Positions 18,723 through 33,290 of a stretch of 51,967 bases of DNA are shown here, one piece after another. The stretch lies in the IMG/VR virus record IMGVR_UViG_3300028999_000002; one strand, 5' to 3'. Each line of letters starts with the position of its first letter. Position 1 is the first letter of the stretch. Below the pieces are notes generated by a model that saw nothing but the letters and a program-made list of their open reading frames with translations, searched no databases and had not been told where the DNA came from. The translations under genes and the position numbers were made by a program. This stretch comes from a virus. Its lineage: Duplodnaviria; Heunggongvirae; Uroviricota; Caudoviricetes.

Positions 18723-18796
18723 TATGAAAAGACAGGAAAAAATAAAATTTAAAAACAGTACATTACGAATGCTCAGACCTATCGTTTAAAGGAGTC

Positions 18797-19531: not shown

Positions 19532-19813
19532 TTACCGCCGCAATCGTTCCGGCTTCTTCCACTGGTAAGTATTTTTCGCGCTCTCCCTCCGTTGTTGAGA
19601 ACGGCGACGATATGCCAGCAACTCAAGGACTCTTGTTCGTATGTTGCGCATATCCACGCCGTTAAGCTCAATACCGTCACGGCGCATCACCTCAGCCACT
19701 ACACGCACATAATTATCTGCGGTCACGCTGTCCGGCTGCGTGGCCTGTTCGTCATGCTGCTTGCTGATTCCACAAGCACGGCGGATTAATCGCAGTATTT
19801 CGGATTCAGTCAT
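19532..19813 (-). CDS. hypothetical protein (satellite)
   Basis: 93-aa ORF downstream of the satellite Nu1-like gene, same strand; no recognisable family. Confidence 0.4.
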   Translation of the reverse strand: MTESEILRLIRRACGISKQHDEQATQPDSVTADNYVRVVAEVMRRDGIELNGVDMRNIRTRVLELLAYRRRSQQRRESAKNTYQWKKPERLRR

Positions 19814-19824
19814 AGCGTACTACG

Positions 19825-20367
19825 TTACTTATCTTTATTCGGCTGCAACTTATCCGGTACGTTTCCGGCAGTTTCCATCAGATAATCGGACAGCATCAGC
19901 GGTATGTTTTCGTCAAGTTTTGCGCATGCGTTACAGGCTCTGATAACTTCTTTTTTCAGTCCATCCAGCATAGACGGCTTCATGTCGGGAAACTTCCTTG
20001 TCATGGCAAGCGGCAGGCTGTCCATGATTGAAGAAATCTGACTCGCCAATTTTGAAAGCACGTATATACAAAACGCTGTATCAATAACGTCGCCGCGTTC
20101 GCGCTCGTTTTTAAGCTCCTGCGCCTCTGCCTGTGCTGTCAGCAATCTGATCCTGACTCGTAGGAGTTCATCATCATCAATCTCGCCTTTGTCGTCTGTA
20201 ATCTGGTTAATTGCATTGCTAACCCGATTGTCTATTACGCTGGCAACATCATAAAACGCCTCGCGGCCTTTACGTTCAACGGGAGTCACTCCCCACTTGT
20301 CGAACGCTGTCGCACTTACACGGCAGCTTTGCGCCATGTTTTTTTTGTTCATCAGGTGCGATTTCAT
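19825..20367 (-). CDS. Nu1-like terminase small subunit (satellite-encoded)
   Basis: C-terminal two-thirds align with lambda Nu1 (…RLLTAQAEAQELKNERERGDVIDTAFCIYVLSKLASQISSIMDSLPLAMTRKFPD…); N-terminal DNA-binding region divergent; start set at the ATG with a GGGGA SD. Confidence 0.8.
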   Translation of the reverse strand: MKSHLMNKKNMAQSCRVSATAFDKWGVTPVERKGREAFYDVASVIDNRVSNAINQITDDKGEIDDDELLRVRIRLLTAQAEAQELKNERERGDVIDTAFCIYVLSKLASQISSIMDSLPLAMTRKFPDMKPSMLDGLKKEVIRACNACAKLDENIPLMLSDYLMETAGNVPDKLQPNKDK

Positions 20368-20439
20368 CAATATCCCCACTTAAGTAATGTTTCAGGTTGG
20401 TGTATTGGCTTTATCTTTTCCTTTTTATTCATAGAGATA

Positions 20440-20530
20440 GAGCGAACAACAAAACCACCACCAGCACCCGAAAAAGGCTCATAAATAGCGAAAACCCGCG
20501 AGGTCGCCGCCCCGTAGCCTACCGGATCGC
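20440..20530 (-). other. satellite cos site (lambda-type cosN GGGCGGCGACCT at 20501-20512, with adjacent cosQ-like and cosB-like sequence)
   Basis: Minus strand reads GGGCGGCGACCTCGCGGGTTTTCGCTATTTATGA, matching the remembered lambda left cohesive end; directly upstream of the Nu1-like gene. Confidence 0.85.
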
Positions 20531-20568
20531 CGGAAAGGACCCGCCAGCCAGAACGGGCCCTAATTTCA

Positions 20569-20952
20569 TCAACCAATCAACTTATAGCGACCATCCCGTG
20601 CATTGCGACGTACACGCTCAATCTTGAGGCATAGCGCCGCATCTGGCTTTTTTGGGACAGGTACGCGGCAATATTCAGAAGATCGAGGAATATTGTTTAT
20701 CCAGTCGATCACTTCACTTAAATACCAGGCCTTACGCCCTTCCGTAACCTGTACGCGTTCGGGGAACTCTCCGCGAGCCTCAAGGTTTAGCAATGTGCGA
20801 CGGCTAAGGGTAGTAAGTTCCATCACCTGATTCATATCAACAAGGCGTTCACTTAAACGCATTTTGTCAGCAATAGCCTTTAATTCCTCTACTGCTGGAT
20901 CCGGATACATCATTTCGGCAATTGGCTTAAGGTCATTGTAATGATTCTGCAT
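20569..20952 (-). CDS. AlpA/excisionase-like HTH DNA-binding protein (satellite)
   Basis: C-terminal part resembles the AlpA/Xis-type HTH (…LSRRTLLNLEARGEFPERVQVTEGRKAWYLSEVIDWI…); lies between the D-like gene and cos. Confidence 0.45.
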   Translation of the reverse strand: MQNHYNDLKPIAEMMYPDPAVEELKAIADKMRLSERLVDMNQVMELTTLSRRTLLNLEARGEFPERVQVTEGRKAWYLSEVIDWINNIPRSSEYCRVPVPKKPDAALCLKIERVRRNARDGRYKLIG

Positions 20953-20963
20953 TGTATCCCCCT

Positions 20964-21305
20964 TTACACACGAGCCAGCGGCTGAACAGAAATACCTGAG
21001 CCAACAAACGCGGCAACCTTTGCCGACAGTTCTTTTACAGACTCAGGCCAGTTCAGAGCATCAACATTTAAAACACCTGTCTTATAAACCTGTGCCTGTG
21101 TTTTTTTCGCTGTGTCGATTTGTACAGCGGAAACATAAACCGCTTTACCTACGCTCGAACCATCCCATACCACCAGTGCACCTGTTGCATCTTCCTGCAT
21201 CAGTGGCGTAAATGCAGGAATTACCCCTTTATTAGCTGAAAATATCCCCAGCGTAGTCACCAGTGCTTCAGTGCCAGCCATGAGTTCAGTGTAATGAGTA
21301 GCCAT
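20964..21305 (-). CDS. head decoration protein D-like (satellite)
   Basis: 113 aa; shares TPLM…ATG.LVVWDG…YK(S/T)G…WPESV with the prophage D at 16062-16409. Confidence 0.75.
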   Translation of the reverse strand: MATHYTELMAGTEALVTTLGIFSANKGVIPAFTPLMQEDATGALVVWDGSSVGKAVYVSAVQIDTAKKTQAQVYKTGVLNVDALNWPESVKELSAKVAAFVGSGISVQPLARV

Positions 21306-21314
21306 TGCTCCCCC

Positions 21315-22361
21315 TTAGCCAATGCGAACGGTAACAAAACGATTGATGCGGGCCGGTATTGGCTGTGGTGCTGAATGTGTCTGCACATATTCAATAGCCG
21401 GATCACCAGGCACAATATAGTTTTTCGGTGCAAGTTCGGCTTTAGTCAGCCCCATTCGGATTAGCTCCGGATCCTGAATACCGCCATAGGCGACAATCCC
21501 CTGAAGAGCCGTATTGCCAAGCACCATCAAATCAGGATCAAGGAAATGTTTTTCTGTTCCGTCCTCGTCGGTATAACGCCCGCTGTAAACAACAATCGCA
21601 ACATCGCCCATATACCCTTTAAAACTCACCGAATCACCAAGGTCTTTAAGGGCCGTTTCCAGTTCGGAATTAGAACCACGACGGGTATCCAAAGCCTCTT
21701 TTATCGCTCTGAATGAACGGTATTTCTTCCATACATTACCACCCATAATGATGATATTAGTGACGCCCTCACTAAATTCTGCGTAGCTCTCAATATCATC
21801 ATTTGGATCAAAAGTTTCTTTATCCTTACCTGACCACTCAGTACCGCCAGACTGAGTGATGATATTTTGTGGTTTTATATTCCAGTCCAGCTCATAACGT
21901 TCAATACCATCGCCCTCAATGATATTTTTCCCCGTTGTGATTGCCTGAACAGCAAGCCATTCAATACGTGCACGAATAGCTTTAGCCTGATTTACAATCG
22001 CCTGTTTAACTTTAATATTACGCGCCCCAAAAGCATTGTATTGCTCAGGTGACACACCAGCAGGGCGCACAGCTAACTTATTTGGATCAATGCTGCTTTT
22101 CGGCTTCATATAACCTGGACGAATTGTTTTTGATTCGTATCCCTCATCTCGTGAAACTTTACTGCCCACCATAGGAGAGCAAAACGCCGCGATCGGGATA
22201 TTTGGATCGTCGATCGTATCAAGAATAATGTCTCTCGATTCAAACATTACCGAGCGAGTGAAAAACAAACTGGTAAACAACGCATTTAATTTTTTTTGCA
22301 CATCTTCAGCATTAGCCACCTGCACAAGCTGTGTAGGCGAATATAAATCAACCATACTCAT
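21315..22361 (-). CDS. major capsid protein E-like (satellite)
   Basis: Shares ITQSGGTEWS, LDTRRGSNSELETA, GDVAIVVYSG blocks with lambda gpE; start set at MSMVDLY by analogy with lambda MSMYTT (the next Met two codons on is equally possible). Confidence 0.85.
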   Translation of the reverse strand: MSMVDLYSPTQLVQVANAEDVQKKLNALFTSLFFTRSVMFESRDIILDTIDDPNIPIAAFCSPMVGSKVSRDEGYESKTIRPGYMKPKSSIDPNKLAVRPAGVSPEQYNAFGARNIKVKQAIVNQAKAIRARIEWLAVQAITTGKNIIEGDGIERYELDWNIKPQNIITQSGGTEWSGKDKETFDPNDDIESYAEFSEGVTNIIIMGGNVWKKYRSFRAIKEALDTRRGSNSELETALKDLGDSVSFKGYMGDVAIVVYSGRYTDEDGTEKHFLDPDLMVLGNTALQGIVAYGGIQDPELIRMGLTKAELAPKNYIVPGDPAIEYVQTHSAPQPIPARINRFVTVRIG

Positions 22362-22572
22362 CCTCTTTACATTCATTACAAATAATTGTGAATATATTCT
22401 ATTACCGATGTCTGCTATGCGAATACATGCAACCAAGTGCAATGTTGTATAAAATATGCCGTAACAACTTCAGTGCTGATAATTCGTGTTAATGTATTTA
22501 CTTCCTTTGGTCGGGATTTATGTAGCATGCCGGAAAATCTATTTTTTTCCGGCATCTTTTTGTTTGCAGAAT

Positions 22573-22995
22573 TTAAAACGGTATATTATCGCCGTACGGA
22601 TCATCATTCCCCGACTGTTGTTTTGCCCTGTTCAGTGCGTCAGTGGCCTGCCCCTGCTGGCCTTTTTTGCCGCCCGGTCGCGCCGTTCGCGCACTGATTA
22701 CGCTGTCTGCGATAACCTGCCAGCCCCGCCGAGTTTCGCCGTTCTGGCCTGTCCACTGGCTTACCTGCATGTTACCCGCCACGCTCACCAGTTCGCCTTT
22801 GTGGTGTTTTGCCAGTGCGTCGGCCTGTCTGCCAAACGCCAGGACGGATAACCACATCGTCGCCGTTCCGTCATCTGCCTGGCTGCACGGCAGGGGAACC
22901 GCCATACTCGCCATCGCCATTTGTGTCCCTTTGCTGGTGGTCTTTAACTGCGGGTCAGCCACCAGCCGCCCGTAAGCCGCTATCTGTGCTGTCAT
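22573..22995 (-). CDS. SSB-like single-stranded DNA-binding protein (satellite)
   Basis: 140 aa with an OB-fold-like N-terminus and the SSB-type acidic tail ending …DDPYGDNIPF. Confidence 0.55.
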   Translation of the reverse strand: MTAQIAAYGRLVADPQLKTTSKGTQMAMASMAVPLPCSQADDGTATMWLSVLAFGRQADALAKHHKGELVSVAGNMQVSQWTGQNGETRRGWQVIADSVISARTARPGGKKGQQGQATDALNRAKQQSGNDDPYGDNIPF

Positions 22996-23306
22996 GCTGT
23001 CTGCTCTCCGGTTTTAACATTGATGGTTGTCACCTGTTCCGCTTCGGCAATCTCCCGTTCTGTCAGCGTGGCAAAGTTTGCCGCTGCTGTGGTCATGAAT
23101 GCGCTTATCAGGTCGGGATGTTCCTTCGCGTATCCTGCCCGTGTGTGGTGGTCTATCGCTTTGATTGCCACCTTTAAGGAAAGCTCTGTCATGTCTAACG
23201 CTTTATATTTTGCCTGTGTTCTGTCTCTGCGAATTTTGGTCATTTGTCGCCCCTGATTCATGTTTTCGGCTGGCATGTTTGTTAAGTGATTTTTATGTAT
23301 GCGCAT
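22992..23306 (-). CDS. hypothetical protein (satellite)
   Basis: 104-aa ORF overlapping the SSB-like start by 4 nt; no recognisable family. Confidence 0.4.
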   Translation of the reverse strand: MRIHKNHLTNMPAENMNQGRQMTKIRRDRTQAKYKALDMTELSLKVAIKAIDHHTRAGYAKEHPDLISAFMTTAAANFATLTEREIAEAEQVTTINVKTGEQTA

Positions 23307-23329
23307 TTATTTTCACCCCCCCCTCGTTT

Positions 23330-23585
23330 AAAAAGTTTTTAGTTGTGCCTCCCCCCCTCTACCCATCTACCCGAATGCTCATCATGTCAGTAATAGCGCG
23401 GCTTTCAGCGGGTAGATAGCTTTTTGACTCCTCTACCTGCCGTCTACCCTGCTACCTGAAACTGATAAAATCAGGTAGAAGAGGTAGAGAGCTTTTATTA
23501 GCCTTCTACCTAGCCCTATACCCACTTATCATGTTGAATAATATGCGTTTATTTTGTTCAGGTAGATGGGGTAGATGGCTTTTAC
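23330..23585. repeat. iteron array (GGTAGA / TCTACC hexamers in both orientations, C-runs): putative satellite replication origin
   Basis: About 11 copies of the hexamer in 250 bp immediately 3' of the primase gene. Confidence 0.65.
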
Positions 23586-23591
23586 AAAAAA

Positions 23592-25346
23592 TTATAAAAA
23601 CGCGTCGCAATCGTCTGTTGTAATTGCGTTGGTCTGCGTTACTCCCTTAACTTTTCGCGTAATATATTCATGCCCGTAAACTTTCGCCGCTGGCTTCATG
23701 GCCTTGCTGAACTCAGCCACGTTTAGCGGTTTGCTCCTGCCCGCGTATGCCATAAACGCCAGATAGACGCGGTAAAGGCTGTTCCTGGTCGTGTACTTCA
23801 CTGAATCACCACCGCCACCCATCATCAGGCCGCGCGCTTCCTCCAGAAAATTCAGGAACTGGCAAAACTCAATAACCGGATCCGTCTGTTGCTTTATTGC
23901 CAGTGCTTCATCACCGTCACGCTGTTCCAGTAGTAAAGCCCGTGCCTTCTCAGGGTCGGTAAAGTTCGCCAGCAATCGGCGGATAATAACGGGGATTTCA
24001 GCCGCAATCTTTTCCGGTAGCTCCCTGTCTTTTTCGGCCTCACTGACGATATTGTCGAAACGGAAAATCACGCGACGACGTGCCACACCTCCGGCCCGTT
24101 CGGTGAATATCATCGGGTTGTTGTTGGTCGCCAGCACCACCGCCCTGATTACCGCCGTGAAACGCTTTTCATATTTCGGGTTAATTTCCACGGGGTCGCC
24201 GCCTGTGATTTTCTTGATGCCCGTTCCTTCGCCTGTATATTTCGGCTGGTCAGCCAGGACGATAAGACGACTCCCGACAACCTGCGCACGTCCACCAGCA
24301 TCATCAAGCGATGTCATTTCAGCGCTTACCGTGTTCTGTTTCCCTGCCAGAAGGCTGGCTATGTGTGTGAATGTACTTTTACCGCTCCCGCCGTCTCCGG
24401 TGGCCTCAATAAACATCTGCCAGTCGTACCGGTTCGCCATAATCATGTACAGCGCGGCACATATACGCATCATCTTGCGCGGGTCTTTTCCGGCTGCGTG
24501 CTCAAGCCATTTATGAAAGTTTGGCGCGTTATCGCGGATGTTCTCCCCTGGTGCTGGTGGCGTGTACTCAATGCCGTTGTGCGTGGTGATCCAGTTCTCC
24601 GGCGTGTGCGGGGAAAATTCCCCCGTTTTCAGGTCAAGCGCACCATTGGCGAACGGCAGCAAATCGCCAGACGGCTCGCCCATTGGTTCGGCAATAACTT
24701 TTAACGCTTCCACGGCGTTATTGATTACGCGCTTGCTGAAAGTGGCCCTGTGCTCTGAATAGATCGCCACCATTTCGCGGCTAAGTTCCATTGTGCTGAC
24801 CGGACACCATACCCCGCCGCGCCATACGTGAACGATTTCACTTTCAGGATGTACGCAAACGCCATCAAAGCGATCGGCAAGCAACTGCGCGCGCTCACTG
24901 TCCGCCATCTGCGAAAGTTGCGCCTTTTGCTTTACCGGAAGCTCAATGACCAGACCATCAGAAAGATTCTGGCGTTCACGGGCCAGATATTCGCGCCAGT
25001 TCTGCACCTCCTGGCCGTGCATACCCTCAGGATAAAAATTTGCATCCTGTACGCCTGCTGCCGCCAGCTTCTGACCAATCGCCTTTATCATTACAGGCGC
25101 AAGATATCCGGCCCTGTATATGCGTGCTGATTTTCGGCCTTCCGGCACAATTTGCAGATTATCCAGTTCGGATAGCTGCTGCTCCCCAAGCCACACAGGA
25201 GGCTCATTATCTCCGGCCATACGCGCATCATGTTCCTGCCATTGTTTCGCGTGTGCCCAGGCATCACTACCCGCAAAAATAATGACTTCTGTTCCTTTGT
25301 GTTTTATGCCGCGTGACTGCTGTTTTACGTTCGGTGCCAGTTTCAT
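23592..25346 (-). CDS. primase / replication initiator with P-loop NTPase (D5-like helicase) domain (satellite pri-rep)
   Basis: 584 aa with Walker A …ATGDGGSGKST… and the overall architecture of phage/satellite primase-helicases. Confidence 0.8.
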   Translation of the reverse strand: MKLAPNVKQQSRGIKHKGTEVIIFAGSDAWAHAKQWQEHDARMAGDNEPPVWLGEQQLSELDNLQIVPEGRKSARIYRAGYLAPVMIKAIGQKLAAAGVQDANFYPEGMHGQEVQNWREYLARERQNLSDGLVIELPVKQKAQLSQMADSERAQLLADRFDGVCVHPESEIVHVWRGGVWCPVSTMELSREMVAIYSEHRATFSKRVINNAVEALKVIAEPMGEPSGDLLPFANGALDLKTGEFSPHTPENWITTHNGIEYTPPAPGENIRDNAPNFHKWLEHAAGKDPRKMMRICAALYMIMANRYDWQMFIEATGDGGSGKSTFTHIASLLAGKQNTVSAEMTSLDDAGGRAQVVGSRLIVLADQPKYTGEGTGIKKITGGDPVEINPKYEKRFTAVIRAVVLATNNNPMIFTERAGGVARRRVIFRFDNIVSEAEKDRELPEKIAAEIPVIIRRLLANFTDPEKARALLLEQRDGDEALAIKQQTDPVIEFCQFLNFLEEARGLMMGGGGDSVKYTTRNSLYRVYLAFMAYAGRSKPLNVAEFSKAMKPAAKVYGHEYITRKVKGVTQTNAITTDDCDAFL

Positions 25347-25642
25347 TTTTTACCTCTGAATCCGTTAATCATGGTTTTCATTTTCTGGATATTTCCCCAC
25401 GCTTTTTCCCTGCTGATGGGCTTACTGCGGGGTGCGGCATATACCAGGGAAAAATCACGCCGGAACTGATAAACAGGCATCACGCAGTCATAGCTATACC
25501 CCTCACGGCGGTAAGTGATGCGCCGTTCTGCCACGCCTTTAATCGTTACCGTGCCGCCGTATTTATCGCGGTAAATATCGCCGTTCATAAATTCAGGTCG
25601 AGCGGGGCCGCTGGCAATAAAGCCAGAATTTTTCATTTCCAT
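25343..25642 (-). CDS. hypothetical protein (satellite early operon)
   Basis: 99-aa ORF overlapping the primase start by 4 nt. Confidence 0.45.
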   Translation of the reverse strand: MEMKNSGFIASGPARPEFMNGDIYRDKYGGTVTIKGVAERRITYRREGYSYDCVMPVYQFRRDFSLVYAAPRSKPISREKAWGNIQKMKTMINGFRGKK

Positions 25643-25659
25643 ATTATTTATTCCTCGAC

Positions 25660-25881
25660 TTAACTCGACTTATTTGATAGCAGGGCACTATTTATTGCGT
25701 CATTGAGTTTTTCTGCTGATTCATCAATAAGTGACAACAGGCCATAAGCAATATTTGCATCTTCATTGTCATTTATGCAATCAAGCCACATATTTAATAT
25801 TGCTTTTGCTGAATTATTTAAAGTTAATGAACTTTCTGCACATGCTAACAATTTAAAAAAGACTTCCCGTTCTGTATTCAT
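25660..25881 (-). CDS. hypothetical small protein (satellite early operon)
   Basis: 73-aa ORF in a tightly packed co-directional series. Confidence 0.35.
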   Translation of the reverse strand: MNTEREVFFKLLACAESSLTLNNSAKAILNMWLDCINDNEDANIAYGLLSLIDESAEKLNDAINSALLSNKSS

Positions 25882-26073
25882 TTAATCCCCCACCAGCTTA
25901 CTTTCTTCCTCAATCAAAAAACTAGCGACACTTCCCGAAAGACGCGCCAGTAGGCTCGCCAGTGCGGATATATCAGCATCTGTAATTTTGTTCGGGTATA
26001 CCTCAAGAAGGCGGCAAATAATTTCTGTCTGGTGCGCACGTTCAGCGGCTTCGTGTAATGTAATTTCCTGCAT
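25882..26073 (-). CDS. hypothetical small protein (satellite early operon)
   Basis: 63-aa ORF abutting its neighbours. Confidence 0.35.
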   Translation of the reverse strand: MQEITLHEAAERAHQTEIICRLLEVYPNKITDADISALASLLARLSGSVASFLIEEESKLVGD

Positions 26074-26258
26074 TAATGCACCTCTTTTAATTCATACACT
26101 GCTGAAATAATGACTTGTGATAAGCCATATTCTGATGATTCGCTTCTCACCGCAGCAATAGCCGTCTGAACATTAACAGCCTTCACATTCTGAGCGATAC
26201 CAATTGTGTGGCCTATTGGGTTAACAGCTCGGGCAAATACACGGAAGGTTTTAAGCAT
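26073..26258 (-). CDS. hypothetical small protein (satellite early operon, first gene)
   Basis: 61-aa ORF; stop overlaps the next start. Confidence 0.35.
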   Translation of the reverse strand: MLKTFRVFARAVNPIGHTIGIAQNVKAVNVQTAIAAVRSESSEYGLSQVIISAVYELKEVH

Positions 26259-26540
26259 GACTCACTCCCTGGCGGATTTTTGCAGCGAATACAGCAACAC
26301 AACCGGACGGGCAACGGCTACGCGCTTCGCGTTCCGTCCAGGCGGTTACGTGGATGATTTGAGATTCTCCGGCACTCAGTGCCAGAAAACGCCACACAAA
26401 GGCCGTTTGTGTGTGTACAAGGTGTGGTATATGATTTACAGCAACCATAACGGCTCCTAGTTTACGTTGTTGGTTAGACGCCCCGTATGTGTTCCCAGCA
26501 CTGCGGGGCGTTGCTCTTTGTATTTCAACAATCCTTTCGG

Positions 26541-26618
26541 TGTGTTTCATGTTATGAGCGCATGAAACACACGTCAAGGCTTTTTGTATTTCTTTTTTTG
26601 TGTATACTGAAACACACC
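26541..26618. promoter_or_regulatory. divergent promoter/operator region of the satellite with an 11-bp perfect inverted repeat (TGTGTTTCATG n9 CATGAAACACA) and a third half-site
   Basis: IR at 26541-26571; additional TGAAACACACC at about 26608; sits between divergent minus- and plus-strand gene sets. Confidence 0.55.
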
Positions 26619-26638
26619 GATGATTAGGAGTTTCAGAA

Positions 26639-26944
26639 ATGGCAACGGCTAACAAAAACGCAAAATCACAACTGACAACTGTCAGAGTCCCACTAGATGT
26701 TATGCAAGGGATGGAATCCGTTAAGCTGGACGGTGAAAGCAATGCCGGATTTATCGTAACCGCCATGCGCGGAGAAATAGCCCGCCGCCAAGCAGAAGGC
26801 AGCGGAGAAAATCCCCTTGTGTCGTCACTGGATGCCCTGGCTAAGGTCGAACAAATCGGCATCAAAGCAGCCGAGGAGATCGGGCAACTCGTCACCGTCG
26901 CGCGTGAAGAACTCCAGCGACGCAAGGTCAAAGAGCATGAATAG
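26639..26944 (+). CDS. hypothetical small protein, candidate regulator (satellite)
   Basis: 101-aa ORF with AGGAG SD, transcribed divergently from the early operon just downstream of the operator-like IR. Confidence 0.45.
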   Translation: MATANKNAKSQLTTVRVPLDVMQGMESVKLDGESNAGFIVTAMRGEIARRQAEGSGENPLVSSLDALAKVEQIGIKAAEEIGQLVTVAREELQRRKVKEHE

Positions 26945-27001
26945 CCAATATCAGCGCCATAGTTTGAGGAACGCAGGCGCATTGCTTTACAGGACAGCAC
27001 C

Positions 27002-27181
27002 ATGAGCGACACAGAATCAACCAAAACACCATCACCAACTCGTAAGAGACGACGCAAAAATATAGCGCATGAACATGAATCAGAAAGATTCGCACCTTGT
27101 TCGTTTGCTCTTGAGAAATTCCTTAAAGAGCACAGGAAAAAGCTCTCGTTGCAAACCTTGGAACGAACCAAATCTGACTGA
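27002..27181 (+). CDS. hypothetical small basic protein (satellite)
   Basis: 59-aa ORF found by manual translation (below the ORF-track cut-off); Lys/Arg-rich N-terminus. Confidence 0.25.
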   Translation: MSDTESTKTPSPTRKRRRKNIAHEHESERFAPCSFALEKFLKEHRKKLSLQTLERTKSD

Positions 27182-27277
27182 TCACATTGCCCACCAGCCG
27201 CAAATGTGGCATTGTTGGTGATGCTTTTGTTTTCCCTTGTTCCCACTGGCGACCCTTTTGCGGTCGCCTTTGTTTTG

Positions 27278-27856
27278 TCACTGAATGCGGTTACCAAAGT
27301 AAAACTCAGGCTGATATTCACGTATCAGCGTTTTTTCTTCTTCCTCCAGCTCACGCTTTTTGCGCTTACATGCCTGTAGCTCCCTCCCCTTCTCGCTGGC
27401 ACTTATTTGATATTGCTCTTTACGGCGGGAAAAATCCTGTAATGCACCCCACGGGATACCATAAGTCCCCGTTTTTCTGATACCTGGTATCACATTTCTG
27501 AATACCCAGTTACTGAAACGATGAGCAAATGTGCCAGGCGTCGTTGCTTTGCGGCTGCGGGCTATTAGTTTGTAGAAACCTGACTCAGAGATAATTCTCA
27601 TATTCTGATTTCCTCCTGGGGTGTAAGTTAAATTTACTCCCTTTTCATCATCATCAAGCATCTGCAACGCCGTACGCGAATTGGTTAGTTCCAGCGCAGC
27701 ACAAACATCTTTTGCAACAAACCACGGATCGCCGTTCAGATACACCACACGAACGTTCACACTATCAAAGCGCAGAACGACGAGATCACGAATATCGCAG
27801 AATTTTTTCACTGGACGAGCGTACCCCTTGCCCGTCACGGCAATATTTTTATTCAT
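27278..27856 (-). CDS. Bro-N domain protein (antirepressor-like)
   Basis: N-terminal …VVYLNGDPWFVAKDVCAALEL… is a typical Bro-N motif. Confidence 0.7.
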   Translation of the reverse strand: MNKNIAVTGKGYARPVKKFCDIRDLVVLRFDSVNVRVVYLNGDPWFVAKDVCAALELTNSRTALQMLDDDEKGVNLTYTPGGNQNMRIISESGFYKLIARSRKATTPGTFAHRFSNWVFRNVIPGIRKTGTYGIPWGALQDFSRRKEQYQISASEKGRELQACKRKKRELEEEEKTLIREYQPEFYFGNRIQ

Positions 27857-27912
27857 CGCGTTTTTACCTTATAGACAAAAAACCCCTCGTGATGAGGGGC
27901 ATTATTTACTGG

Positions 27913-28170
27913 TTATTGCTGTTTTGTTTTTCCAGGTTTCCACCCAGGATGCCACTCACCACGGATCCATGCCTGAACCTCTGAAAGTCGATACCCTGCA
28001 GCACGTTCACCGATCTTGATACGTCGCGGGAATTTACCTGCCTGCTCCATTTTCCAGCGTGTTGAGTTTGCCAGCGTGGTAAGTGCTATGCACTCTTTTT
28101 CACGAATGAACCGATCAATGTCCTTCATTGTGCGCAAATCGTTTTCATCAACAAGAGAATAAATTGCCAT
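27913..28170 (-). CDS. alpA: AlpA-family transcriptional regulator
   Basis: 85 aa, AlpA-type HTH (…RWKMEQAGKFPRRIKIGERAAGYRLSEVQAWI…), immediately downstream of int as in P4-like and PICI elements. Confidence 0.75.
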   Translation of the reverse strand: MAIYSLVDENDLRTMKDIDRFIREKECIALTTLANSTRWKMEQAGKFPRRIKIGERAAGYRLSEVQAWIRGEWHPGWKPGKTKQQ

Positions 28171-28171
28171 A

Positions 28172-29413
28172 TCACACCACCTCTTTATTAAGCTCGATAA
28201 CGTTGTTGTTAAATCCTGCTATCGTATTAAGGTAATTAACCCACATATTAAGCACCTCAAGTTTTTTCTTTATATGCCTGCTTTTATTGTAAACACCAGC
28301 AACCCCTTTCACTTTATGACCTAAAAGAAGTTCGACAATATAAGGATCCGCCCCCATATCATTAAGCGTAGTGGAAAATGTGCGCCTGAAATCATGTATG
28401 CACCACAAGCCATTAGTATCATGACCAAGACGCCTGCATATTCTGTTTGCAGCCCCTGTTATTGTCGCCCTTTGCAAAGCACAACCGACAACATAACCGC
28501 GATTTTTTGTTTCTGCGTAAAGATTAACGATCCATTGTTTTATTCCGTCAGGAACAGGCCTTACTATAGCCTCCTTGTTTTTGCTGTGCTCTTTTGGGAC
28601 TGTCCATACCCAGTTTTTTAAATCCCATTCGTCCCAGGTGGATAGCCTCGCCTCCTGCTGTCGGCAACCAAACACCAGGCAGATAACCATTATTCTTCGG
28701 TTATATATTGATGACAGAGTTAGCAAATTATTACCGTAAGCATAAGACCATACATCAGCGGTTTCATTGATATTAAGAACGCGATCCCTTATACCGGATG
28801 AGCGCCCGACATAACTTACGTTAATATCTCCAAAGGGATCGCACGCGATGTATTGCCTGACGCGACAAAAACGCAACGCCTGTTTGATATCAAGAAAAAT
28901 TGCACCAGACATAACAGGCGCATTTTTTTTGATCCTGTCAAAGACGGTAAGCCATGTGTGTAATTTGCACTGTTCTATAGCCATATCACCGATATAGGGG
29001 AAGATATGCTTTTCAAATCGTTTTATTAAATATTCATGCTCTTTTCTGGCTGTTGTGGCGTGATTGTCGTACCAGTAAAACAGCGCATCCCTTACGGTCA
29101 CTGGTTGCATAGTTTTTTCGGCAGCAAGTTTTATTTGCCTGCGGGGGTCCAGATTTTCAGCCAGCCATTCACGGCACTGATCACGCATGCGCCTGGCCGT
29201 TGCAAGAGACATGTCAGGATAGCGACCAAGTGTAAGCCATACCGGAGGGGATTCCCTGCCACCAAGACGATAGTAAAAAACAAAGCTGATCCCCCCAACC
29301 ATGCTTACACGCACAGACAACCCGCGCCCATCCGCTATTGTTTTTTGTTTGTCCTGCCGTTTTCCGACAAGACTCTTTAACAGTTTGTCACTGAGTTTGT
29401 TTTCAATAGCCAT
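28172..29413 (-). CDS. tyrosine integrase, P4-type (satellite)
   Basis: 413 aa; P4-family integrase N-terminal domain and C-terminal catalytic region; 5' end about 200 bp from the right junction. Confidence 0.9.
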   Translation of the reverse strand: MAIENKLSDKLLKSLVGKRQDKQKTIADGRGLSVRVSMVGGISFVFYYRLGGRESPPVWLTLGRYPDMSLATARRMRDQCREWLAENLDPRRQIKLAAEKTMQPVTVRDALFYWYDNHATTARKEHEYLIKRFEKHIFPYIGDMAIEQCKLHTWLTVFDRIKKNAPVMSGAIFLDIKQALRFCRVRQYIACDPFGDINVSYVGRSSGIRDRVLNINETADVWSYAYGNNLLTLSSIYNRRIMVICLVFGCRQQEARLSTWDEWDLKNWVWTVPKEHSKNKEAIVRPVPDGIKQWIVNLYAETKNRGYVVGCALQRATITGAANRICRRLGHDTNGLWCIHDFRRTFSTTLNDMGADPYIVELLLGHKVKGVAGVYNKSRHIKKKLEVLNMWVNYLNTIAGFNNNVIELNKEVV

Positions 29414-29433
29414 TAAAAGCCCTCAAGAGATTT

Positions 29434-29485
29434 GCAATACACACCCATCCCGATCGCCAATTTGCAATACACATTGCAATACACA
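29434..29485. repeat. three GCAATACACA repeats between the integrase start and the right att core
   Basis: gcaatacacac … gcaatacaca ttgcaatacaca; same motif as at 18797-18817. Confidence 0.7.
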
Positions 29486-29561
29486 AAACCGCGAAAAACT
29501 GGAAGGGTGATGAACGGTCATCAAAAGCATGGAAAACGACATTCCAGACGCAGCAAGGGTT

Positions 29562-30434
29562 TCAGTGGAGTTGGCGAACGATGCGGGCAACTACGGTGAG
29601 ATGATAGACATAAATCGCCTTCACTATGGCCGACTGAAGCTGTGTTGCCTGCAGGGAATCGAGCATCTTCAGCCGTTCCATGACGCTGTAAAACTGATTA
29701 GCCCCACGGGTCTGCCCGTCCTCCACCGGCTCGAAAATATGCAGCATGGCCGGACGCCCGGTGGGAAGTTCACGCGGGATCCGTTCCCATCGTCCACTAC
29801 CAGAGAACGGAAAATCATCCTCACAGATATGGTACGCGACGGCACGGCCATATCGATCGACCTCCACACCGGCCCGCAGAAAACGGTTCCCCATACCGTG
29901 TCCAGGCGTGTCCACCCGTTTCGGACTCACGGCTTTAAAACGCGTACGGAATAACTGCGTGGTTTCCGTATCCCAGACCGGCTGCACAAAGATTTCGCCG
30001 TTAAACGCATGAACGCCCACACCTTCACGGATAAATTCCGTGAACGTGCGTTTTCCTTCCACGTCGATCTCGCCAAACATCCCTTCGGCGTATTCCGACC
30101 AGGCCGCCTCCACCTCATCGACAAAGCTTTTTGCTGCGGTCTCCCGCATCCCCAGCCAGCGCCAGTTCGGACGGTAGCTGATCAGAAACATATGCCCGAC
30201 AATGTGATCCTTATGCAGAGCCACCGCATTAGCCGCTATTCCGTTATTGCGCACCAGATCATCTGCCCGGGCATTCCCCAGACGCAACGCGGGCAGCAGG
30301 GCCGCATCGGCACTCTGCGCCGGTGGCAACCACTCAGCCATTTGCCCGCCAAATCCTGCACCGCCCCCGTTGTAGCTGAGACTCTCACGAAGCGGAACGC
30401 CGTTCACATCAATCAGGACAGGCGTTCGTTTCAT
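29562..30434 (-). pseudogene. B: portal protein B, N-terminal half (ends in 15 element-derived codons after the junction)
   Basis: Translation matches lambda gpB up to …LQSAIVKA(I)Y, then diverges into element sequence and stops. Confidence 0.9.
29609..29621. repeat. right copy of the 13-bp direct repeat (att core, plus-strand CATAAATCGCCTT)
   Basis: Portal homology ends exactly here; one mismatch to the left copy. Confidence 0.75.
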
Positions 30435-30637
30435 AACCTCACTCCCAGCGGACGACGGCGACACCGGGTTGTCCCCAGTACCGACTCCGCATCATTGATC
30501 GCCCGGTTAAGCTCATCCAGAGAAGCCGCCGTATATTCAATTCTGCGACCATCTTTCTGGACAGACACCACCCGTTTACCGGTTAATAAATCAAGGCGCG
30601 CCTGACGCAGCGCCTGCAGTTCAGCGACTGTAACCAT
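30431..30637 (-). CDS. W: head-tail joining protein W
   Basis: 68 aa, lambda gpW-like (…LLTGKRVVSVQKDGRRIEYTA…). Confidence 0.9.
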   Translation of the reverse strand: MVTVAELQALRQARLDLLTGKRVVSVQKDGRRIEYTAASLDELNRAINDAESVLGTTRCRRRPLGVRL

Positions 30638-32549
30638 TCACTCCTCCGGACAGCTTCGCTGCCAGTTCTTTAAGGGTTGGCCGGGTCGTCTCTTCTTCCC
30701 GGGATTTTGCCAGTACAGCCAGATCAAGCTGCCAGCGTTGCACGGACACACGTAATGCCGCGTAGGCATACACCAGGCAGTCCAGCGCTTCGTTACGCCG
30801 CTTTTTGTTATCCCACAGCAGACGCATCTTTCCTTTTTCCCACTTCTCCACAAGCTCTTCCGCGACCAGTTGCTGCGCCTCTGTCTGCGAAAAAATCTCC
30901 GGATCATCAGGAAAACGGATAGCATACGACGTGGCTTCATCCACAGGCGTGGGATCGGCTTTCATACGGGCATAGAGAATTTCTTTTGCGGTGTCCGTCC
31001 CCACTTCACACAGATACACGCCCCGCTGATTGCGGGTTTTTGGCATGGTGATCACCGGCTTGCCATAGACAGATGCGCCTTTTACCGGCAGCACCCGGAA
31101 AACACCGTGTTTTTTTGACCTCTGATAAACGATTTCGCCATCGATCCCCCCGATGTCCCAGCAGACACGGGAAATGGTCATTTCGGTTCCGTCTGCATGG
31201 CGGTATTTTTTGTTGATCGCCGCATCCACACGTAACAGCGTCTCTTCCTCATCGGGACGCCCCATAATGATGATTTTATCCACCAGAAAGGCTTCCTCTC
31301 CCGGAGCCCATCCCCAGACATACATCTCAAAACGGTTTCGCTGCGAGTCAATGCCCGCCGTCAGATAAACCACCCGGGCAGGCACCGCCGCCGTGTAACG
31401 CACAACCTTATCCATCAGCACCTGGTGATCGAGTTTTTCGCCCACAGCCTCTTCCCAGGTCTCGCCCAGCGTGGTGTTCACAAAGGTTTTCAGGCCGTTG
31501 GGATCTTTCAGTGCATCCAGCCAGTCATAGACAATCTGTACCCAGGTGGTGAACGGACTGTACGCCGTCCAGATATGGAAAGTGATGGAGCGCGGCGGCG
31601 GAATTTCATCACCCCGGGCGCTGAAAAACATCAGGCCGTCACGGGTCCACATGCCCGTGTTTTCACAGATCCACCGCCCGTTACTCTGGTCAAGCTCAGA
31701 CTGATGGATCACACAGCCATGATGCTCACAAAGGTAGAAAACACTTTCTGGCTTATTCTTCTCCCACTTAAGACCGAAAGGCGAGGCATCATCGCCAAAT
31801 TTCAGATACTGCTCCTCCCCACAGTGCGGACAGGGCACATAAAAACGCATGAAGTGTGCCGACTCGTTAGCGGCTTTTTCGATCTGGCAGGAGCCTTTGA
31901 TTTTAGGCGTCGAGCCGCGAATGGATTTTGGCCATACAGAGCCCTCAATACGTTTATCCCCCAGCAGGGTTGGCGAACCCTCTTTTTCAACATCCGGTTC
32001 GAACGAGGAAAGCTCGTCATAACAGACCACATCCACGGATTTTTCACGGTAGTTTTTTGCTGCCGCACCACCCAGACACCAGAACCCCACACCGGAGGAA
32101 AAACGCTTCAGGGTGAGCGTATTATCGCGGTGTTTTCTTCCGAACCATGGAGCCAGCTCCAGCAATGCAGGAACATCCCTTATCGTTGGCTCAACATGAG
32201 ATTTCATAAAATCTTCAGCAGCTGAGTCCGTGGGCTGAAAAAGAAGGCTGTTGCGTGATTTATGCTCAATAAAATAAGCCTCCACTCCCAGCAACATCTT
32301 TGTATAACCAACACGGGCAGATTTAATCAGGTTAACCGTGCGAATCAGATCGTTGCCCATACAGTTCATGATGCCAACCTGAAACGGCAGTGTTTCCCAT
32401 CGCCCCGGGGTATAAGACGACTCTTTAGGAAGGTAATAATGTTTATTGGCCCACTGAACTGTCGTCAGTGGAACAGGAATAATGAGAGATAAAAGCCCTG
32501 TAGCTATCGCACCGGCTGCATTAGCTGCCTTCTGCGCGTCTGAAATCAT
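30621..32549 (-). CDS. A: terminase large subunit A
   Basis: Lambda gpA-like throughout (…[22 protein letters not shown]…); start set at the internal Met giving a lambda-like overlap with Nu1. Confidence 0.95.
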
Positions 32550-33067
32550 CGATCCACCCGCCCACGTTTTCACCGGCCTTAGCTGCAACATTGGAGGCTT
32601 TCGCGATTTCAGTTTTCACCACATCAAGGTGTGATGGTGAAATGTCCGGATATTTACGCTGTAATGTCAACGGCACACGCACAAGTATCCCCGAAATCTC
32701 CTGTGCCACACGTTGCAGAATGAAGGTAAACAGTTCAGTTTCCAGCACTACTCCGTCTTCACGGGCATTTTTCAGTTCCTGCGCATCTGCCTGCGCTTTT
32801 GTGAGCCGGTAGCGTTCATAGTCAATGGTGCCGGGTTGTAAATCTGACTCCGCTGCCGCACGCAAATCGTCCAGTTCTTTGCGGAGCTTTTCGTTTTCGA
32901 TATCAGTTTCCCTCTGCGCATACCACTGAATTGCCATGGCAGTATCAAATACAGATTCAATGCCCTTACTACCTTTGGAGGCGCAAGGGAGTCCCTGACT
33001 GCCAGCGTTCAATCGTCCGCGGGTCCACGTTGAAAATTTCGGCAAGCCTCTTTTTATTAACCTTCAT
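32521..33067 (-). pseudogene. Nu1: terminase small subunit Nu1, frameshifted in this sequence
   Basis: ATG at 33067 opens [32 protein letters not shown]-stop (lambda Nu1 N-terminus); homology continues in another frame (…[39 protein letters not shown]…) to the stop at 32521. Confidence 0.8.
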
Positions 33068-33199
33068 GAAAACAACCCATTATCAAATACAAGGCCCGAC
33101 ATGAAAACGCCAGAAAAAGGCATTTTCGGACACTTTCATGTCGGACCTTTACGGATGCAATATTAAAAAAAAACAAAAAGTTATATTCGAGAAGTACCG

Positions 33200-33290
33200 A
33201 CACGATTTTCCCTGAAAAATTTTCATAAATAGTGAAAAACCGCGAGGTCGCCGCCCCGTAACCTGTTGGATCGACGGAAAGGACCCGAAA
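33200..33290 (-). other. prophage cos site (cosN GGGCGGCGACCT at 33245-33256)
   Basis: Minus strand reads GGGGCGGCGACCTCGCGGTTTTTCACTATTTATGAAAATTTT, upstream of Nu1 as in lambda. Confidence 0.85.

What the first reader, a model, noticed from the sequence alone, without database searches (positions are those of the whole stretch)
20440..33290. Two lambda-type cos sites with identical cosN but different flanking cosB-side sequence
Both cos sites read GGGCGGCGACCTCGCGG on the minus strand and are preceded by a cosQ-like GGGTCCTTTCCG…ACAGG/GTAGG…TACG block. The satellite copy matches remembered lambda more closely (…GGGTTTTCGCTATTTATGA…) than the prophage copy (…GGTTTTTCACTATTTATGAAAA…), and the sequences toward each Nu1 gene (cosB side) differ. 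Combined with the divergent N-terminal DNA-binding domains of the two Nu1 proteins, this is the expected signature of packaging-specificity redirection.
Basis: partly seen in the sequence, partly recalled or inferred. Interest (0 to 1): 0.55.

Follow-up and report, generated by a model that had tools for sequence, protein, structure and literature searches.

The report
Satellite and helper prophage cos sites
A lambda-like E. coli prophage and an 11-kb phage satellite inserted in its portal gene share the same DNA-cutting site, but each has its own recognition sequence and its own small terminase, which is the known way such satellites get packaged; this is a common, already catalogued element.

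Summary
GGGCGGCGACCTCGCGG occurs exactly twice, on the minus strand, at 20496-20512 and 33240-33256. Each copy has GGGTCCT (cosQ) 30 bp upstream. The two sites match through bp 34 (20 of 22 at bp 13-34) and are unrelated at bp 48-65 (4 of 18).

The site at 33240 belongs to a phage-21-type lambdoid prophage. Its cosB has three R-like elements. The site at 20496 belongs to a 10,899-bp helper-embedded PICI in the prophage portal gene. This is the published B:Phage_portal_2:241 group (Tommasini et al. 2023).

The satellite has a Nu1-family small terminase (TerS) where EcCICFT073 has rppA. Its DNA-binding end is closest to phage N15 gp1: 59% identity, against 29% to the helper TerS-21.

Its cosB has no internal repeats. 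It contains GGTGGTGGTTTTGTTGTT at bp 51-68. This stretch is 16 of 18 invariant across five PICI lineages with divergent TerS, and it lies where R3 lies in lambda and N15.

Packaging redirection is therefore well supported by comparison but remains untested. Two caveats apply. The TerS C-terminal (TerL-binding) end is as divergent as the DNA-binding end. In this window the prophage nu1 carries a 2-bp frameshift.

It is a known kind of system: TerS-encoding E. coli PICIs, such as the one in IHE3034, are published. Interest is modest.

The parts
33245..33256 (-). Prophage cosN: the 12-nt cohesive-end sequence GGGCGGCGACCT. Base 1 is window position 33256.
   Evidence: Identical to lambda NC_001416 bp 1-12.
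33280..33286 (-). Prophage cosQ core GGGTCCT, starting 30 nt upstream of cohesive-end base 1.
   Evidence: Same sequence and spacing as at the lambda right end. The cosQ coordinates in lambda are from my own knowledge.
33068..33222 (-). Prophage cosB, of the complex phage-21 type. It has an R3-like TCGTGTCGGTAC near bp 50-65, plus two further TGTCGG-core elements in opposite orientations.
   Evidence: 27-nt inverted arms at 33091-33117 and 33123-33149; the sequence. The cognate TerS DNA-binding domain is identical to PDB 7lwr. PMC9026076 calls the TerS of CFT073 prophage 4 'TerS-21', and searches show that protein is the same one as in the EC28 copy of this prophage.
32521..33067 (-). Prophage nu1 (TerS-21 type). 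A 2-bp deletion near 32995 shifts the frame.
   Evidence: alignment with EC28. PDB matches; none of 584 genomes carrying this segment shares the deletion.
30621..32549 (-). Prophage terminase large subunit (gpA homologue, 642 aa).
   Evidence: annotation of the 99.8% identical EC28 locus; translation.
29610..30434 (-). 5' part of the prophage portal gene (gpB homologue), cut off by the satellite.
17943..18726 (-). 3' part of the prophage portal gene. Joining the two parts at the AAGGCGAT core gives an uninterrupted 530-codon reading frame.
29614..29621 (-). Satellite attL core AAGGCGAT.
   Evidence: The flanking string matches the published B_Phage_portal_2_241 attL sequences.
18715..18722 (-). 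Satellite attR core AAGGCGAT. The element is 10,899 bp from core to core.
28172..29413 (-). Satellite tyrosine integrase (413 aa).
   Evidence: Arm-DNA-bind_3 and Phage_integrase domains. It is unrelated to the prophage integrase at 49361-50488.
23592..25346 (-). Satellite primase/helicase (D5_N, DUF5906, Pox_D5 domains).
21315..22358 (-). Satellite homologue of the lambda gpE-type major capsid protein.
   Evidence: Phage_cap_E; 43% identical to the helper gpE homologue.
20964..21305 (-). Satellite homologue of the gpD-type head decoration protein.
   Evidence: HDPD; 45% identical to the helper gpD homologue.
20569..20952 (-). AlpA-like helix-turn-helix protein (127 aa) immediately upstream of the satellite cos.
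   Evidence: Phage_AlpA; phrog_2790. It is kept in the same position in L007-L009 and L013-L014.
20536..20542 (-). Satellite cosQ core GGGTCCT.
20501..20512 (-). Satellite cosN: cohesive-end sequence GGGCGGCGACCT. Base 1 is window position 20512.
20445..20462 (-). Candidate R3 of the satellite cosB: GGTGGTGGTTTTGTTGTT at bp 51-68.
   Evidence: 16/18 invariant across five PICI lineages, against 6/16 at bp 35-50 and 12/32 at bp 69-100; position. It resembles N15 R3, GAGGTTGTTGTT at bp 48-59 (PMC4669245); no internal repeats in the satellite cosB.
19825..20367 (-). Satellite Nu1-family terminase small subunit (180 aa from the ATG).
   Evidence: PF07471 at 85.7 bits, profile positions 80-162 only; phrog_57 over the whole length; 48% identical to N15 gp1; hhalign probability 99.5% against TerS-21; no similarity to RppA.
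19532..19813 (-). Conserved 93-aa protein of unknown function downstream of TerS.
   Evidence: 76% identical to the protein in the same position in EcCICFT073; phrog_1561.

Best explanation
The two sites are the packaging origins of two nested mobile elements.

**The two elements.** The site at 33240-33256 is the cos of a phage-21-type lambdoid prophage. The site at 20496-20512 is the cos of a 10.9-kb phage-inducible chromosomal island (PICI). The PICI is integrated, in the same orientation as the late operon, at an AAGGCGAT core inside the prophage portal gene.

**What is shared and what is private.** The parts of cos read by the large terminase subunit (cosQ, the 12-nt cohesive end and its flanks to bp 34) are shared. 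The part read by the small subunit is private to each element. The prophage has a complex cosB with three R-like elements. The satellite has a simple, N15-like cosB with one R3-positioned element, GGTGGTGGTTTTGTTGTT at bp 51-68.

**Proposed pathway (inferred).**
1. After induction the satellite excises, which restores the portal gene, and replicates.
2. Its own Nu1-family TerS binds the R3-like element through an N15-like winged helix-turn-helix.
3. This TerS brings the helper's large subunit to the satellite cosN, so satellite concatemers are cut and packaged.
4. Four genome copies come to about 43.6 kb, which would fill a lambda-sized head.

**Shown here:** the anatomy, the homologies, the conservation pattern and the restorable portal frame. 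**Inferred:** DNA binding, TerL recruitment, and any interference with the helper.
For: - Exact duplicate cosN with cosQ at lambda spacing.
- Divergence begins after bp 34; only 4/18 positions match at bp 48-65.
- The satellite TerS is a full-length Nu1-family protein. Its N-terminus is 59% identical to N15 gp1, against 29% to the helper TerS-21.
- The predicted recognition-helix region reads ATAFDKWGV in the satellite and VQAFDKWGV in N15.
- Across 19 family members down to 58% identity, the N-terminal 50 residues are the most conserved part.
- The bp 51-68 element is 16/18 invariant across five lineages. One of these (L013) has a different cohesive end, AGGCGGCAGCGT. So cosN differs between lineages while cosB stays conserved along with TerS.
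- This element lies where R3 lies in lambda (bp 50-65) and in N15 (bp 48-59) (PMC9026076, PMC4669245).
- In EcCICFT073-like islands at the same site next to phoQ, the slot after cosN holds either rppA with its own cosB or TerS with this cosB.
- The helper TerS protein in the near-identical EC28 copy is the same protein as in CFT073 prophage 4, a proven PICI helper (PMC6092414).
- The att strings match the published B:Phage_portal_2:241 HE-PICIs, and the portal frame is restorable.
- The TerS-plus-cos module is present in 761 of 5426 complete E. coli genomes, which argues against a decaying remnant.
Against: - There are no binding, cleavage or transfer data.
- The TerS-encoding PICIs of IHE3034 (TerS 81% identical to this one) and 18098 were barely transferred after mitomycin C induction in the one published test (PMC6092414).
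- The C-terminal about 50 residues, where lambda TerS binds TerL, are only 34-40% identical to lambda, 21 or N15 TerS.
- The identical satellite sits in lambda-type and 21-type helpers, whose TerL N-terminal 50 residues are 47% identical. Lambda and 21 TerS are each reported to be specific for their own TerL (PMC9026076).
- The AlphaFold model of TerS had low confidence (pLDDT 55), so the fold of the N-terminus rests on homology only.
- (GGT)n copy number varies (L010 has 6 bp fewer). That sits oddly with the strict cosN-to-R3 spacing known for lambda.
Confidence: 0.62

Rival explanations
1. Bridging (Rpp-like) model. The satellite TerS supplies the DNA-binding specificity but does not bind TerL itself. 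It co-assembles with the helper TerS through the conserved central oligomerisation region, and the helper TerS C-terminus brings in TerL. This is what Murialdo and Feiss proposed for Rpp-TerS. The mixed oligomers would also poison packaging of the helper.
For: - The central region (residues 56-130) is the part best conserved with every phage TerS compared (43-48%), including an AQAxAQELKN stretch. The C-terminus is poorly conserved.
- One identical satellite is found in helpers with different TerS/TerL specificity types.
- TerS occupies exactly the slot of rppA in sister islands.
- The Rpp precedent (PMC6739421, PMC9026076).
Against: - Unlike Rpp (139-154 aa), this protein keeps a full-length C-terminal region that aligns with TerS-21 up to residue 163. 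That would be unnecessary for a pure bridge.
- Within the PICI TerS family the C-terminus varies in blocks, as expected if it adapts to partners.
- There is no direct evidence for hetero-oligomers.
Confidence: 0.2
2. Mismatched host prophage. The TerS/cosB module is tuned to N15- or Monarch-type phages, or to some other helper. The prophage that happens to carry the portal attB is only an integration target. The shared cosN simply reflects conservation across the lambda-like group, and no redirection takes place in this cell.
For: - The closest phage TerS is N15 gp1, and the R3-like element resembles R3 of N15.
- GGGCGGCGACCT is common to lambda, 21 and many lambda-like phages (PMC4669245).
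- TerS-type PICIs were poorly mobilised by resident prophages.
- In this window the helper is doubly defective: nu1 is frameshifted and the portal is split.
Against: - HE-PICIs of this integrase clade consistently target late genes of lambdoid prophages, and a related one was shown to excise and replicate with its composite (PMC10111431).
- The N15 cohesive end (GGGCGGCGTCCG) differs from the satellite's, while the embedding prophages match it 12/12.
- The satellite capsid and decoration genes are gpE/gpD-like, as in the embedding prophage.
Confidence: 0.13
3. Inactive remnant. The satellite cos and TerS are captured late-gene debris with no present packaging role.
For: PICI late zones do capture prophage late genes (PMC10111431).
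Against: - The TerS reading frame is intact.
- The DNA-binding end and the bp 51-68 element are conserved across genera.
- The module is identical in unrelated strains (100% match in APEC O2-211) and is present in 14% of complete E. coli genomes.
Confidence: 0.05

Closest known systems
Helper-embedded PICIs, site group B:Phage_portal_2:241 (Tommasini, Mageeney and Williams 2023, PMC10111431)
   Same: - Same AAGGCGAT identity block.
- The same attL and attR flanking strings as the published Eco...11.B_Phage_portal_2_241 entries.
- About 11 kb in size and co-oriented with the interrupted portal gene of a lambdoid prophage.
- The same four gene zones: integration, Bro, replication and late.
   Different: Nothing structural; this is a member of the group. 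That paper did not analyse cos or TerS for this group. It only notes that 11capE lacks terS and shares a cos-like stretch with its helper.
EcCICFT073 and the Rpp mechanism (Fillol-Salom 2018 and 2019, PMC6092414 and PMC6739421; Murialdo and Feiss 2022, PMC9026076)
   Same: - The same late module order: capsid E-like gene, decoration D-like gene, a small protein, cos, a specificity gene, and a 93-aa protein that is 76% identical.
- cosQ and cosN match the helper, and bp 1-34 are identical to EcCICFT073 cos1.
- cosB is unrelated to the helper's and has no repeated R sites.
   Different: - The specificity gene is a full-length Nu1-family TerS (180 aa) and not Rpp (144 aa). BLASTP finds no similarity between them.
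- There is no second, inverted cos.
- The R3-position motif is GGTGGTGGT at bp 51-59, whereas Rpp-type islands have its reverse complement, ACCACCACC, at bp 55-63 (PMC9026076).
- This island is integrated in a prophage gene and not next to phoQ.
EcCIIHE3034, a published TerS-encoding E. coli PICI (Fillol-Salom 2018)
   Same: TerS is 81% identical, and the cos layout and the GGTGGTGGTTTTGTTGTT element are the same.
   Different: It is chromosomal, lying between cspD and clpS, and not embedded in a prophage. The C-terminal third of its TerS belongs to a different sequence block. It was barely transferred in the published test.
Phage N15 gp1 and its simple cosB (Feiss et al. 2015, PMC4669245)
   Same: - It is the closest phage TerS: 48% identical overall and 59% in the DNA-binding end.
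- cosB has a single R3-positioned G/T-rich site and no internal R repeats: GAGGTTGTTGTT at bp 48-59 in N15, and GGTGGTGGTTTTGTTGTT at bp 51-68 here.
   Different: - N15 has a different cohesive end (GGGCGGCGTCCG).
- N15 has a lambda-like TerS C-terminus.
- N15 has a remote inverted rR2 site inside gene 1, for which I found no convincing counterpart here.
SaPI-encoded TerS of staphylococcal pac-type islands
   Same: The logic is the same: a satellite-encoded small terminase pairs with the helper's large subunit and directs packaging to the satellite's own recognition site (as summarised in PMC6092414).
   Different: SaPIs use headful pac packaging, an unrelated TerS family and a separate inhibitor (Ppi) of the phage TerS. 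Here packaging is cos-type, with a shared cleavage site.

Membership tests
Lambda-type cos site | A 12-nt cohesive-end sequence closely matching lambda GGGCGGCGACCT, with conserved flanks. | tested here: met
   Both sites match 12/12. At bp 13-34 the satellite matches lambda 22/22 and the prophage 20/22.
Lambda-type cos site | cosQ upstream of cosN at lambda spacing. | tested here: met
   GGGTCCT starts 30 nt before base 1 in both sites and in lambda.
Lambda-type cos site | cosB with TerS-binding R element(s) between cosN and the terS gene. | tested here: met
   The prophage has three TGTCGG-core elements, one of them inverted. The satellite has one conserved R3-positioned element and no internal repeats, the N15-type simple cosB. 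These are sequence features only.
Lambda-type cos site | Cleavage by terminase to give cohesive ends in virion DNA. | not testable with these tools
   This needs end mapping of virion DNA.
Nu1-family terminase small subunit | Match to Pfam PF07471 above its gathering score. | tested here: met
   85.7 bits against a cut-off of 30, but covering only profile positions 80-162. The match to phrog_57 covers the whole length, with E = 5e-51.
Nu1-family terminase small subunit | [quoted passage not shown] | tested here: inconclusive
   hhalign aligns residues 6-163 with TerS-21 at 99.5% probability. The N-terminus is 59% identical to that of N15 gp1. The AlphaFold secondary structure (helix 8-14, helix 19-25, hairpin, helix 41-58) fits the fold, but pLDDT is only 55, so I ran no fold search.
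Nu1-family terminase small subunit | C-terminal domain that binds the large subunit. | not testable with these tools
   The region is present but only 34-40% identical to lambda, 21 and N15 TerS.
Gram-negative PICI (Fillol-Salom 2018 criteria) | Integrase, AlpA-type regulator, primase/replication module, about 10-15 kb in size, no lysis or tail genes. | tested here: met
   The element is 10,899 bp.
Gram-negative PICI (Fillol-Salom 2018 criteria) | Induction, replication and high-frequency transfer that depend on a helper phage. | not testable with these tools
   This needs experiments. The related TerS-type islands transferred poorly in the one published test.
Helper-embedded PICI, B:Phage_portal_2:241 | Integration at the AAGGCGAT block inside a gpB-type portal gene, co-oriented with it. 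| tested here: met
   The strings match the supplementary attL/attR files of PMC10111431. The same insertion is seen in L001, L002 and L003.
Helper-embedded PICI, B:Phage_portal_2:241 | Integrase belongs to the corresponding subclade. | not tested
   I built no integrase tree. The arm-type repeats TTGCAATACACA lie near both ends.
Rpp-type packaging redirection | Presence of an Rpp homologue (139-154 aa, a DNA-binding end plus a dimerisation helix, no TerL-binding tail). | tested here: not met
   BLASTP finds no similarity between the slot protein and RppA. The TerS query gave no PDB hit to RppC 6hlk. I searched no other satellite ORF against RppA or RppC, and none has an annotation or family match suggesting Rpp.
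Capsid-forming PICI (cf-PICI) | Own large terminase, portal, protease or scaffold, and head-tail connectors. | tested here: not met
   The late zone holds only the capsid E-like, decoration D-like and TerS genes.

The most novel reading that the evidence does not exclude
The satellite's full-length TerS may work as an Rpp-like specificity subunit and not as a self-sufficient small terminase. In this reading it co-assembles with whichever helper TerS is present (lambda-type or 21-type), contributes an N15-like DNA-binding head that reads GGTGGTGGT at the R3 position, and lets the helper TerS tail recruit TerL. That would explain how one identical satellite can live in helpers of different terminase specificity. 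It would also link the TerS-type and Rpp-type islands, whose R3-position 9-mers are reverse complements of each other, as two solutions built on one ancestral recognition site.
Probability: 0.2. Interest if true: 0.6.

Novelty: new member of a known kind. Interest (0 to 1): 0.33.

Why it matters
It gives a clean natural illustration that cos is modular. The parts read by the large terminase subunit are shared with the helper, while the part read by the small subunit stays conserved with the satellite's own TerS.

It nominates a specific 18-bp element (bp 51-68) and a specific recognition helix as the specificity pair. This module is present in about 14% of complete E. coli genomes, and its packaging has not been characterised experimentally.

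It also poses a sharp question: how can one TerS serve helpers with different TerS-TerL pairing? That can be answered with standard cos-plasmid transfer assays. For annotation, it shows that a second cos and a second 'terminase small subunit' inside a prophage can mark a nested satellite and need not be a duplication.

Tried and rejected
- **Second integrase.** I considered that the 413-aa ORF at 50699-51940 was a second copy of the satellite integrase, because the lengths are equal. It is unrelated. It is a Macro-domain, DarG-like protein. The prophage integrase is at 49361-50488.
- **TerS as an Rpp relative.** I tested whether the satellite TerS is related to Rpp. BLASTP found no similarity to RppA, and the PDB search gave no hit to RppC.
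- **cf-PICI.** Rejected, because the satellite has no large terminase, portal or protease gene of its own.
- **AlphaFold2 model.** A prediction of TerS from a 19-sequence alignment gave pLDDT 55. I judged it too weak for fold searches and did not run them.
- **Remote inverted R site.** I looked for a site like N15 rR2 inside the satellite terS. The only candidate was a weak 2-mismatch match in the NKKN codons, probably chance.
- **IHF site.** A scan of the first 200 bp of each cos for the IHF consensus WATCAANNNNTTR found nothing under that strict pattern, including in lambda itself. The scan was therefore uninformative.
- **Rfam.** A scan of 18000-34000 at E <= 0.1 found no RNA family.

Full report
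**1. The observation**

The 17-mer GGGCGGCGACCTCGCGG occurs exactly twice in the window, both times on the minus strand, at 20496-20512 and 33240-33256. None of 100 dinucleotide-preserving shuffles gave a match, even allowing two mismatches.

I number from base 1 of the cohesive end, which is window position 20512 for one site and 33256 for the other. Both sites have GGGTCCT starting 30 nt upstream, as in lambda NC_001416.

| Comparison | cosQ side | bp 1-12 | bp 13-34 | bp 48-65 |
|---|---|---|---|---|
| Satellite vs prophage | 26/32 | 12/12 | 20/22 | 4/18 |
| Satellite vs lambda | 27/32 | 12/12 | 22/22 | 8/18 |
| Prophage vs lambda | 28/32 | 12/12 | 20/22 | 12/18 |

(All values.) The description in the finding is accurate. 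The satellite is closer to lambda only as far as bp 34.

**2. What the two sites belong to**

The window is an E. coli lambdoid prophage with its late genes on the minus strand. The order is: lysis genes, cos at 33240, nu1, A, W, a split portal gene, then protease, D, E and the tail genes.

Between the two halves of the portal gene lies a 10,899-bp element. It contains, in order:
- an integrase
- a small helix-turn-helix gene
- a Bro-N gene
- Icd-like and DUF4222 genes
- a D5-type primase
- an SSB gene
- a gpE-like capsid gene
- a gpD-like decoration gene
- an AlpA-like gene
- cos at 20496
- a Nu1-family TerS
- a 93-aa gene

.

The element is flanked by AAGGCGAT. Joining the portal halves at that core gives an uninterrupted 530-codon frame.

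The same element, 97.5-99.8% identical, interrupts the portal genes of different lambdoid prophages in other complete genomes.

This arrangement is already published. Tommasini, Mageeney and Williams (PMC10111431) describe helper-embedded PICIs at 14 late-gene sites. Their supplementary attL and attR strings for the group B:Phage_portal_2:241 match this window. That paper does not analyse cos or TerS for this group.

**3. The prophage side**

In the 99.8% identical EC28 copy, nu1 encodes a 182-aa protein. Its first 54 residues are identical to PDB 7lwr, and its first 98 residues match lambda Nu1 (PDB 6hn7_B) at E = 1.4e-36. It is the same protein as the TerS of CFT073 prophage 4. Murialdo and Feiss call that protein TerS-21 (PMC9026076), and that phage is the proven helper of EcCICFT073 (PMC6092414).

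The prophage cosB is complex. It has a TCGTGTCGGTAC element near bp 50-65 and two further TGTCGG-core elements in opposite orientation.

In this window, nu1 lacks two bases relative to EC28, which shifts the frame inside the DNA-binding domain. None of 584 complete E. coli genomes with this segment shares the deletion. It is either a private mutation or a sequencing error.

**4. The satellite side**

The 180-aa protein downstream of the satellite cos matches Pfam Phage_Nu1, but only over profile positions 80-162. It matches phrog_57 over its whole length. Residues 6-163 align with TerS-21 at 99.5% hhalign probability.

Identity of the satellite TerS to phage small terminases, by segment:

| Compared with | Residues 1-55 | Residues 56-130 | Residues 131-180 |
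|---|---|---|---|
| TerS-21 (helper) | 29% | 43% | 34% |
| Lambda Nu1 | 35% | 48% | 41% |
| N15 gp1 | 59% | 47% | 40% |

N15 gp1 is the best hit among 50,697 phage records. The predicted recognition-helix region reads ATAFDKWGV in the satellite and VQAFDKWGV in N15. The aligned lambda and 21 segments read RTIQNWQ and RTIERWQ.

An AlphaFold model had the expected helix-helix-hairpin-helix order but low confidence (pLDDT 55), so I did not use it further.

The satellite cosB has no internal repeats.

**5. A conserved R3-position element**

I collected loci encoding relatives of the satellite TerS at 58-81% identity. They come from PICIs in four settings:
- beside phoQ (L010-L012)
- beside clpS (L015, and IHE3034 as L020)
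- inside a prophage capsid E gene in other Enterobacteriaceae (L007-L009)
- in Citrobacter (L013-L014)

.

With the sequences registered on the cohesive end, conservation across five lineages is as follows:

| Region | Invariant positions |
|---|---|
| bp 35-50 | 6/16 |
| bp 51-68, GGTGGTGGT(T/G)TTGTTGTT | 16/18 |
| bp 69-100 | 12/32 |
| cohesive end | 8/12 |

The cohesive end is less conserved than the element because the Citrobacter lineage has AGGCGGCAGCGT. So cosN differs between lineages, while cosB stays conserved along with the satellite TerS.

In the protein alignment the N-terminal 50 residues are the most conserved part, and the C-terminal third falls into distinct sequence blocks.

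The element lies where R3 lies in lambda (bp 50-65, with contacts at 55-63) and in N15 (bp 48-59, GAGGTTGTTGTT) (PMC9026076, PMC4669245).

**6. Relation to the Rpp islands**

EcCICFT073 has the same late-module order, and its 93-aa protein is 76% identical to the one here. Its cos1 is identical to the satellite cos through bp 34, then diverges and leads into rppA.

Islands at the same phoQ site in other strains carry TerS and the G/T-rich cosB instead. So cosB plus the adjacent gene behaves as one exchangeable specificity cassette, with its boundary at the edge of cosN.

TerS and RppA show no BLASTP similarity.

One curiosity remains. Rpp-type islands have ACCACCACC at bp 55-63 (PMC9026076). 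That is the reverse complement of the GGTGGTGGT found at bp 51-59 in TerS-type islands. I have no explanation for this.

**7. Mechanism and its weak points**

The satellite TerS binds its own R3-like site and delivers the helper's large subunit to a cosN that the helper enzyme already cuts.

Four weak points remain.
- The C-terminal region of TerS, which in lambda binds TerL, is as divergent as the DNA-binding end.
- The identical satellite sits both in 21-type helpers (this window and EC28) and in lambda-type helpers (L002 and L003, whose cosB is lambda's own). The TerL N-terminal 50 residues of these two helper types are only 47% identical. Lambda and 21 small subunits are reported to be specific for their own large subunits (PMC9026076).
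- A bridging model therefore remains open, in which the satellite TerS mixes with the helper TerS through the well-conserved central region.
- The only published transfer test of TerS-type E. coli PICIs gave very low transfer. One of them, from IHE3034, has a TerS 81% identical to this one and the same cos layout.

In this particular window the helper has a frameshifted nu1. If that deletion is real, the strain is a natural helper-terS mutant.

**8. Consequences of two co-oriented cos sites**

The two sites lie 12.7 kb apart on one replicon. If the satellite has not excised, packaging started at either site would meet the other. This is inference only; nothing here tests it.

The satellite capsid and decoration proteins are 43% and 45% identical to the helper's. 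In EcCICFT073, deleting the homologous genes did not abolish transfer (PMC6092414), and that island is reported to be packaged in full-sized capsids. Four satellite genomes come to 43.6 kb, which would fit a lambda-sized head.

**9. Novelty and verdict**

All of the following are published:
- the element (a B:Phage_portal_2:241 HE-PICI)
- the principle of shared cosQ and cosN with a private cosB
- the existence of TerS-encoding E. coli PICIs

Three points add to the papers I could search: the N15-like DNA-binding end, the conserved bp 51-68 element, and the cassette exchange between TerS and Rpp.

The module is common, with at least 80% coverage in 761 of 5426 complete E. coli genomes. I rate it a new member of a known kind, of modest interest. 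It leaves one useful open question: how a single TerS serves helpers with different terminase pairing.

Noticed in passing
window 32990-33000 (within nu1, 32521-33067, minus strand): There is a 2-bp deletion (TC) relative to EC28 and CFT073 TerS-21, which shifts the frame of the helper small terminase inside its DNA-binding domain. None of 584 complete E. coli genomes carrying this segment has it. It is either a private inactivating mutation or a sequencing error.
   Followed up: yes
window 17943-18726 and 29610-30434: The prophage portal gene is split by the satellite at an AAGGCGAT core. Precise excision would restore a 530-codon frame. This is the published helper-embedded PICI configuration (B:Phage_portal_2:241).
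   Followed up: yes
window 19136-19281: Three tandem 54-bp units lie in the non-coding right end of the satellite. Each begins with a short palindrome (TCCTCAAATTGAGGA, TCCCCCAATGGGGG, TCCTGCATTGCAGG). Similar units occur at the right end of EcCICFT073 (L004, about 3660-3850). There was no Rfam match, and the function is unknown.
   Followed up: partly
window 18793-18806, 29430-29443, 29460-29473, 29472-29485: Four copies of TTGCAATACACA lie near both satellite ends. They are probably arm-type binding sites for the satellite integrase.
   Followed up: no
CFT073 cos1 (L004 2558-2640) compared with window 20454-20462: Rpp-type PICIs have ACCACCACC at cos bp 55-63. TerS-type PICIs have its reverse complement, GGTGGTGGT, at bp 51-59. 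I have no explanation for this.
   Followed up: partly
L010 compared with L011 (cos region upstream of TerS, about 5860-5900 in each locus): The number of GGT units in the PICI cosB varies between otherwise near-identical islands (a 6-bp difference). This shifts the downstream GTTGTT relative to cosN, which is surprising given the strict cosN-to-R3 spacing reported for lambda.
   Followed up: no
window 36708-39100 (plus strand): A low-GC (about 35-40%) two-gene insert lies between the lysis genes and the Q region. One gene encodes a 391-aa NA37 nucleoid-associated-like protein and the other a 404-aa protein of phrog_5023 (unknown function). Neither has a PADLOC match. EC28 has TolA-like genes at this position instead.
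   Followed up: partly
window 50699-51940 (minus strand): A 413-aa Macro-domain protein matches the DarG model of PADLOC (E = 7e-58). It lies just beyond the prophage integrase (49361-50488). A DarT partner, if there is one, would lie past the window end.
   Followed up: partly
window 20569-20952 (minus strand): A second AlpA-family gene (127 aa) sits immediately upstream of the satellite cos. It is kept in that position in the HE-PICIs L007-L009 and in the Citrobacter islands L013-L014. The EcCICFT073-like islands next to phoQ or clpS have an unrelated 137-aa protein there.
   Followed up: no
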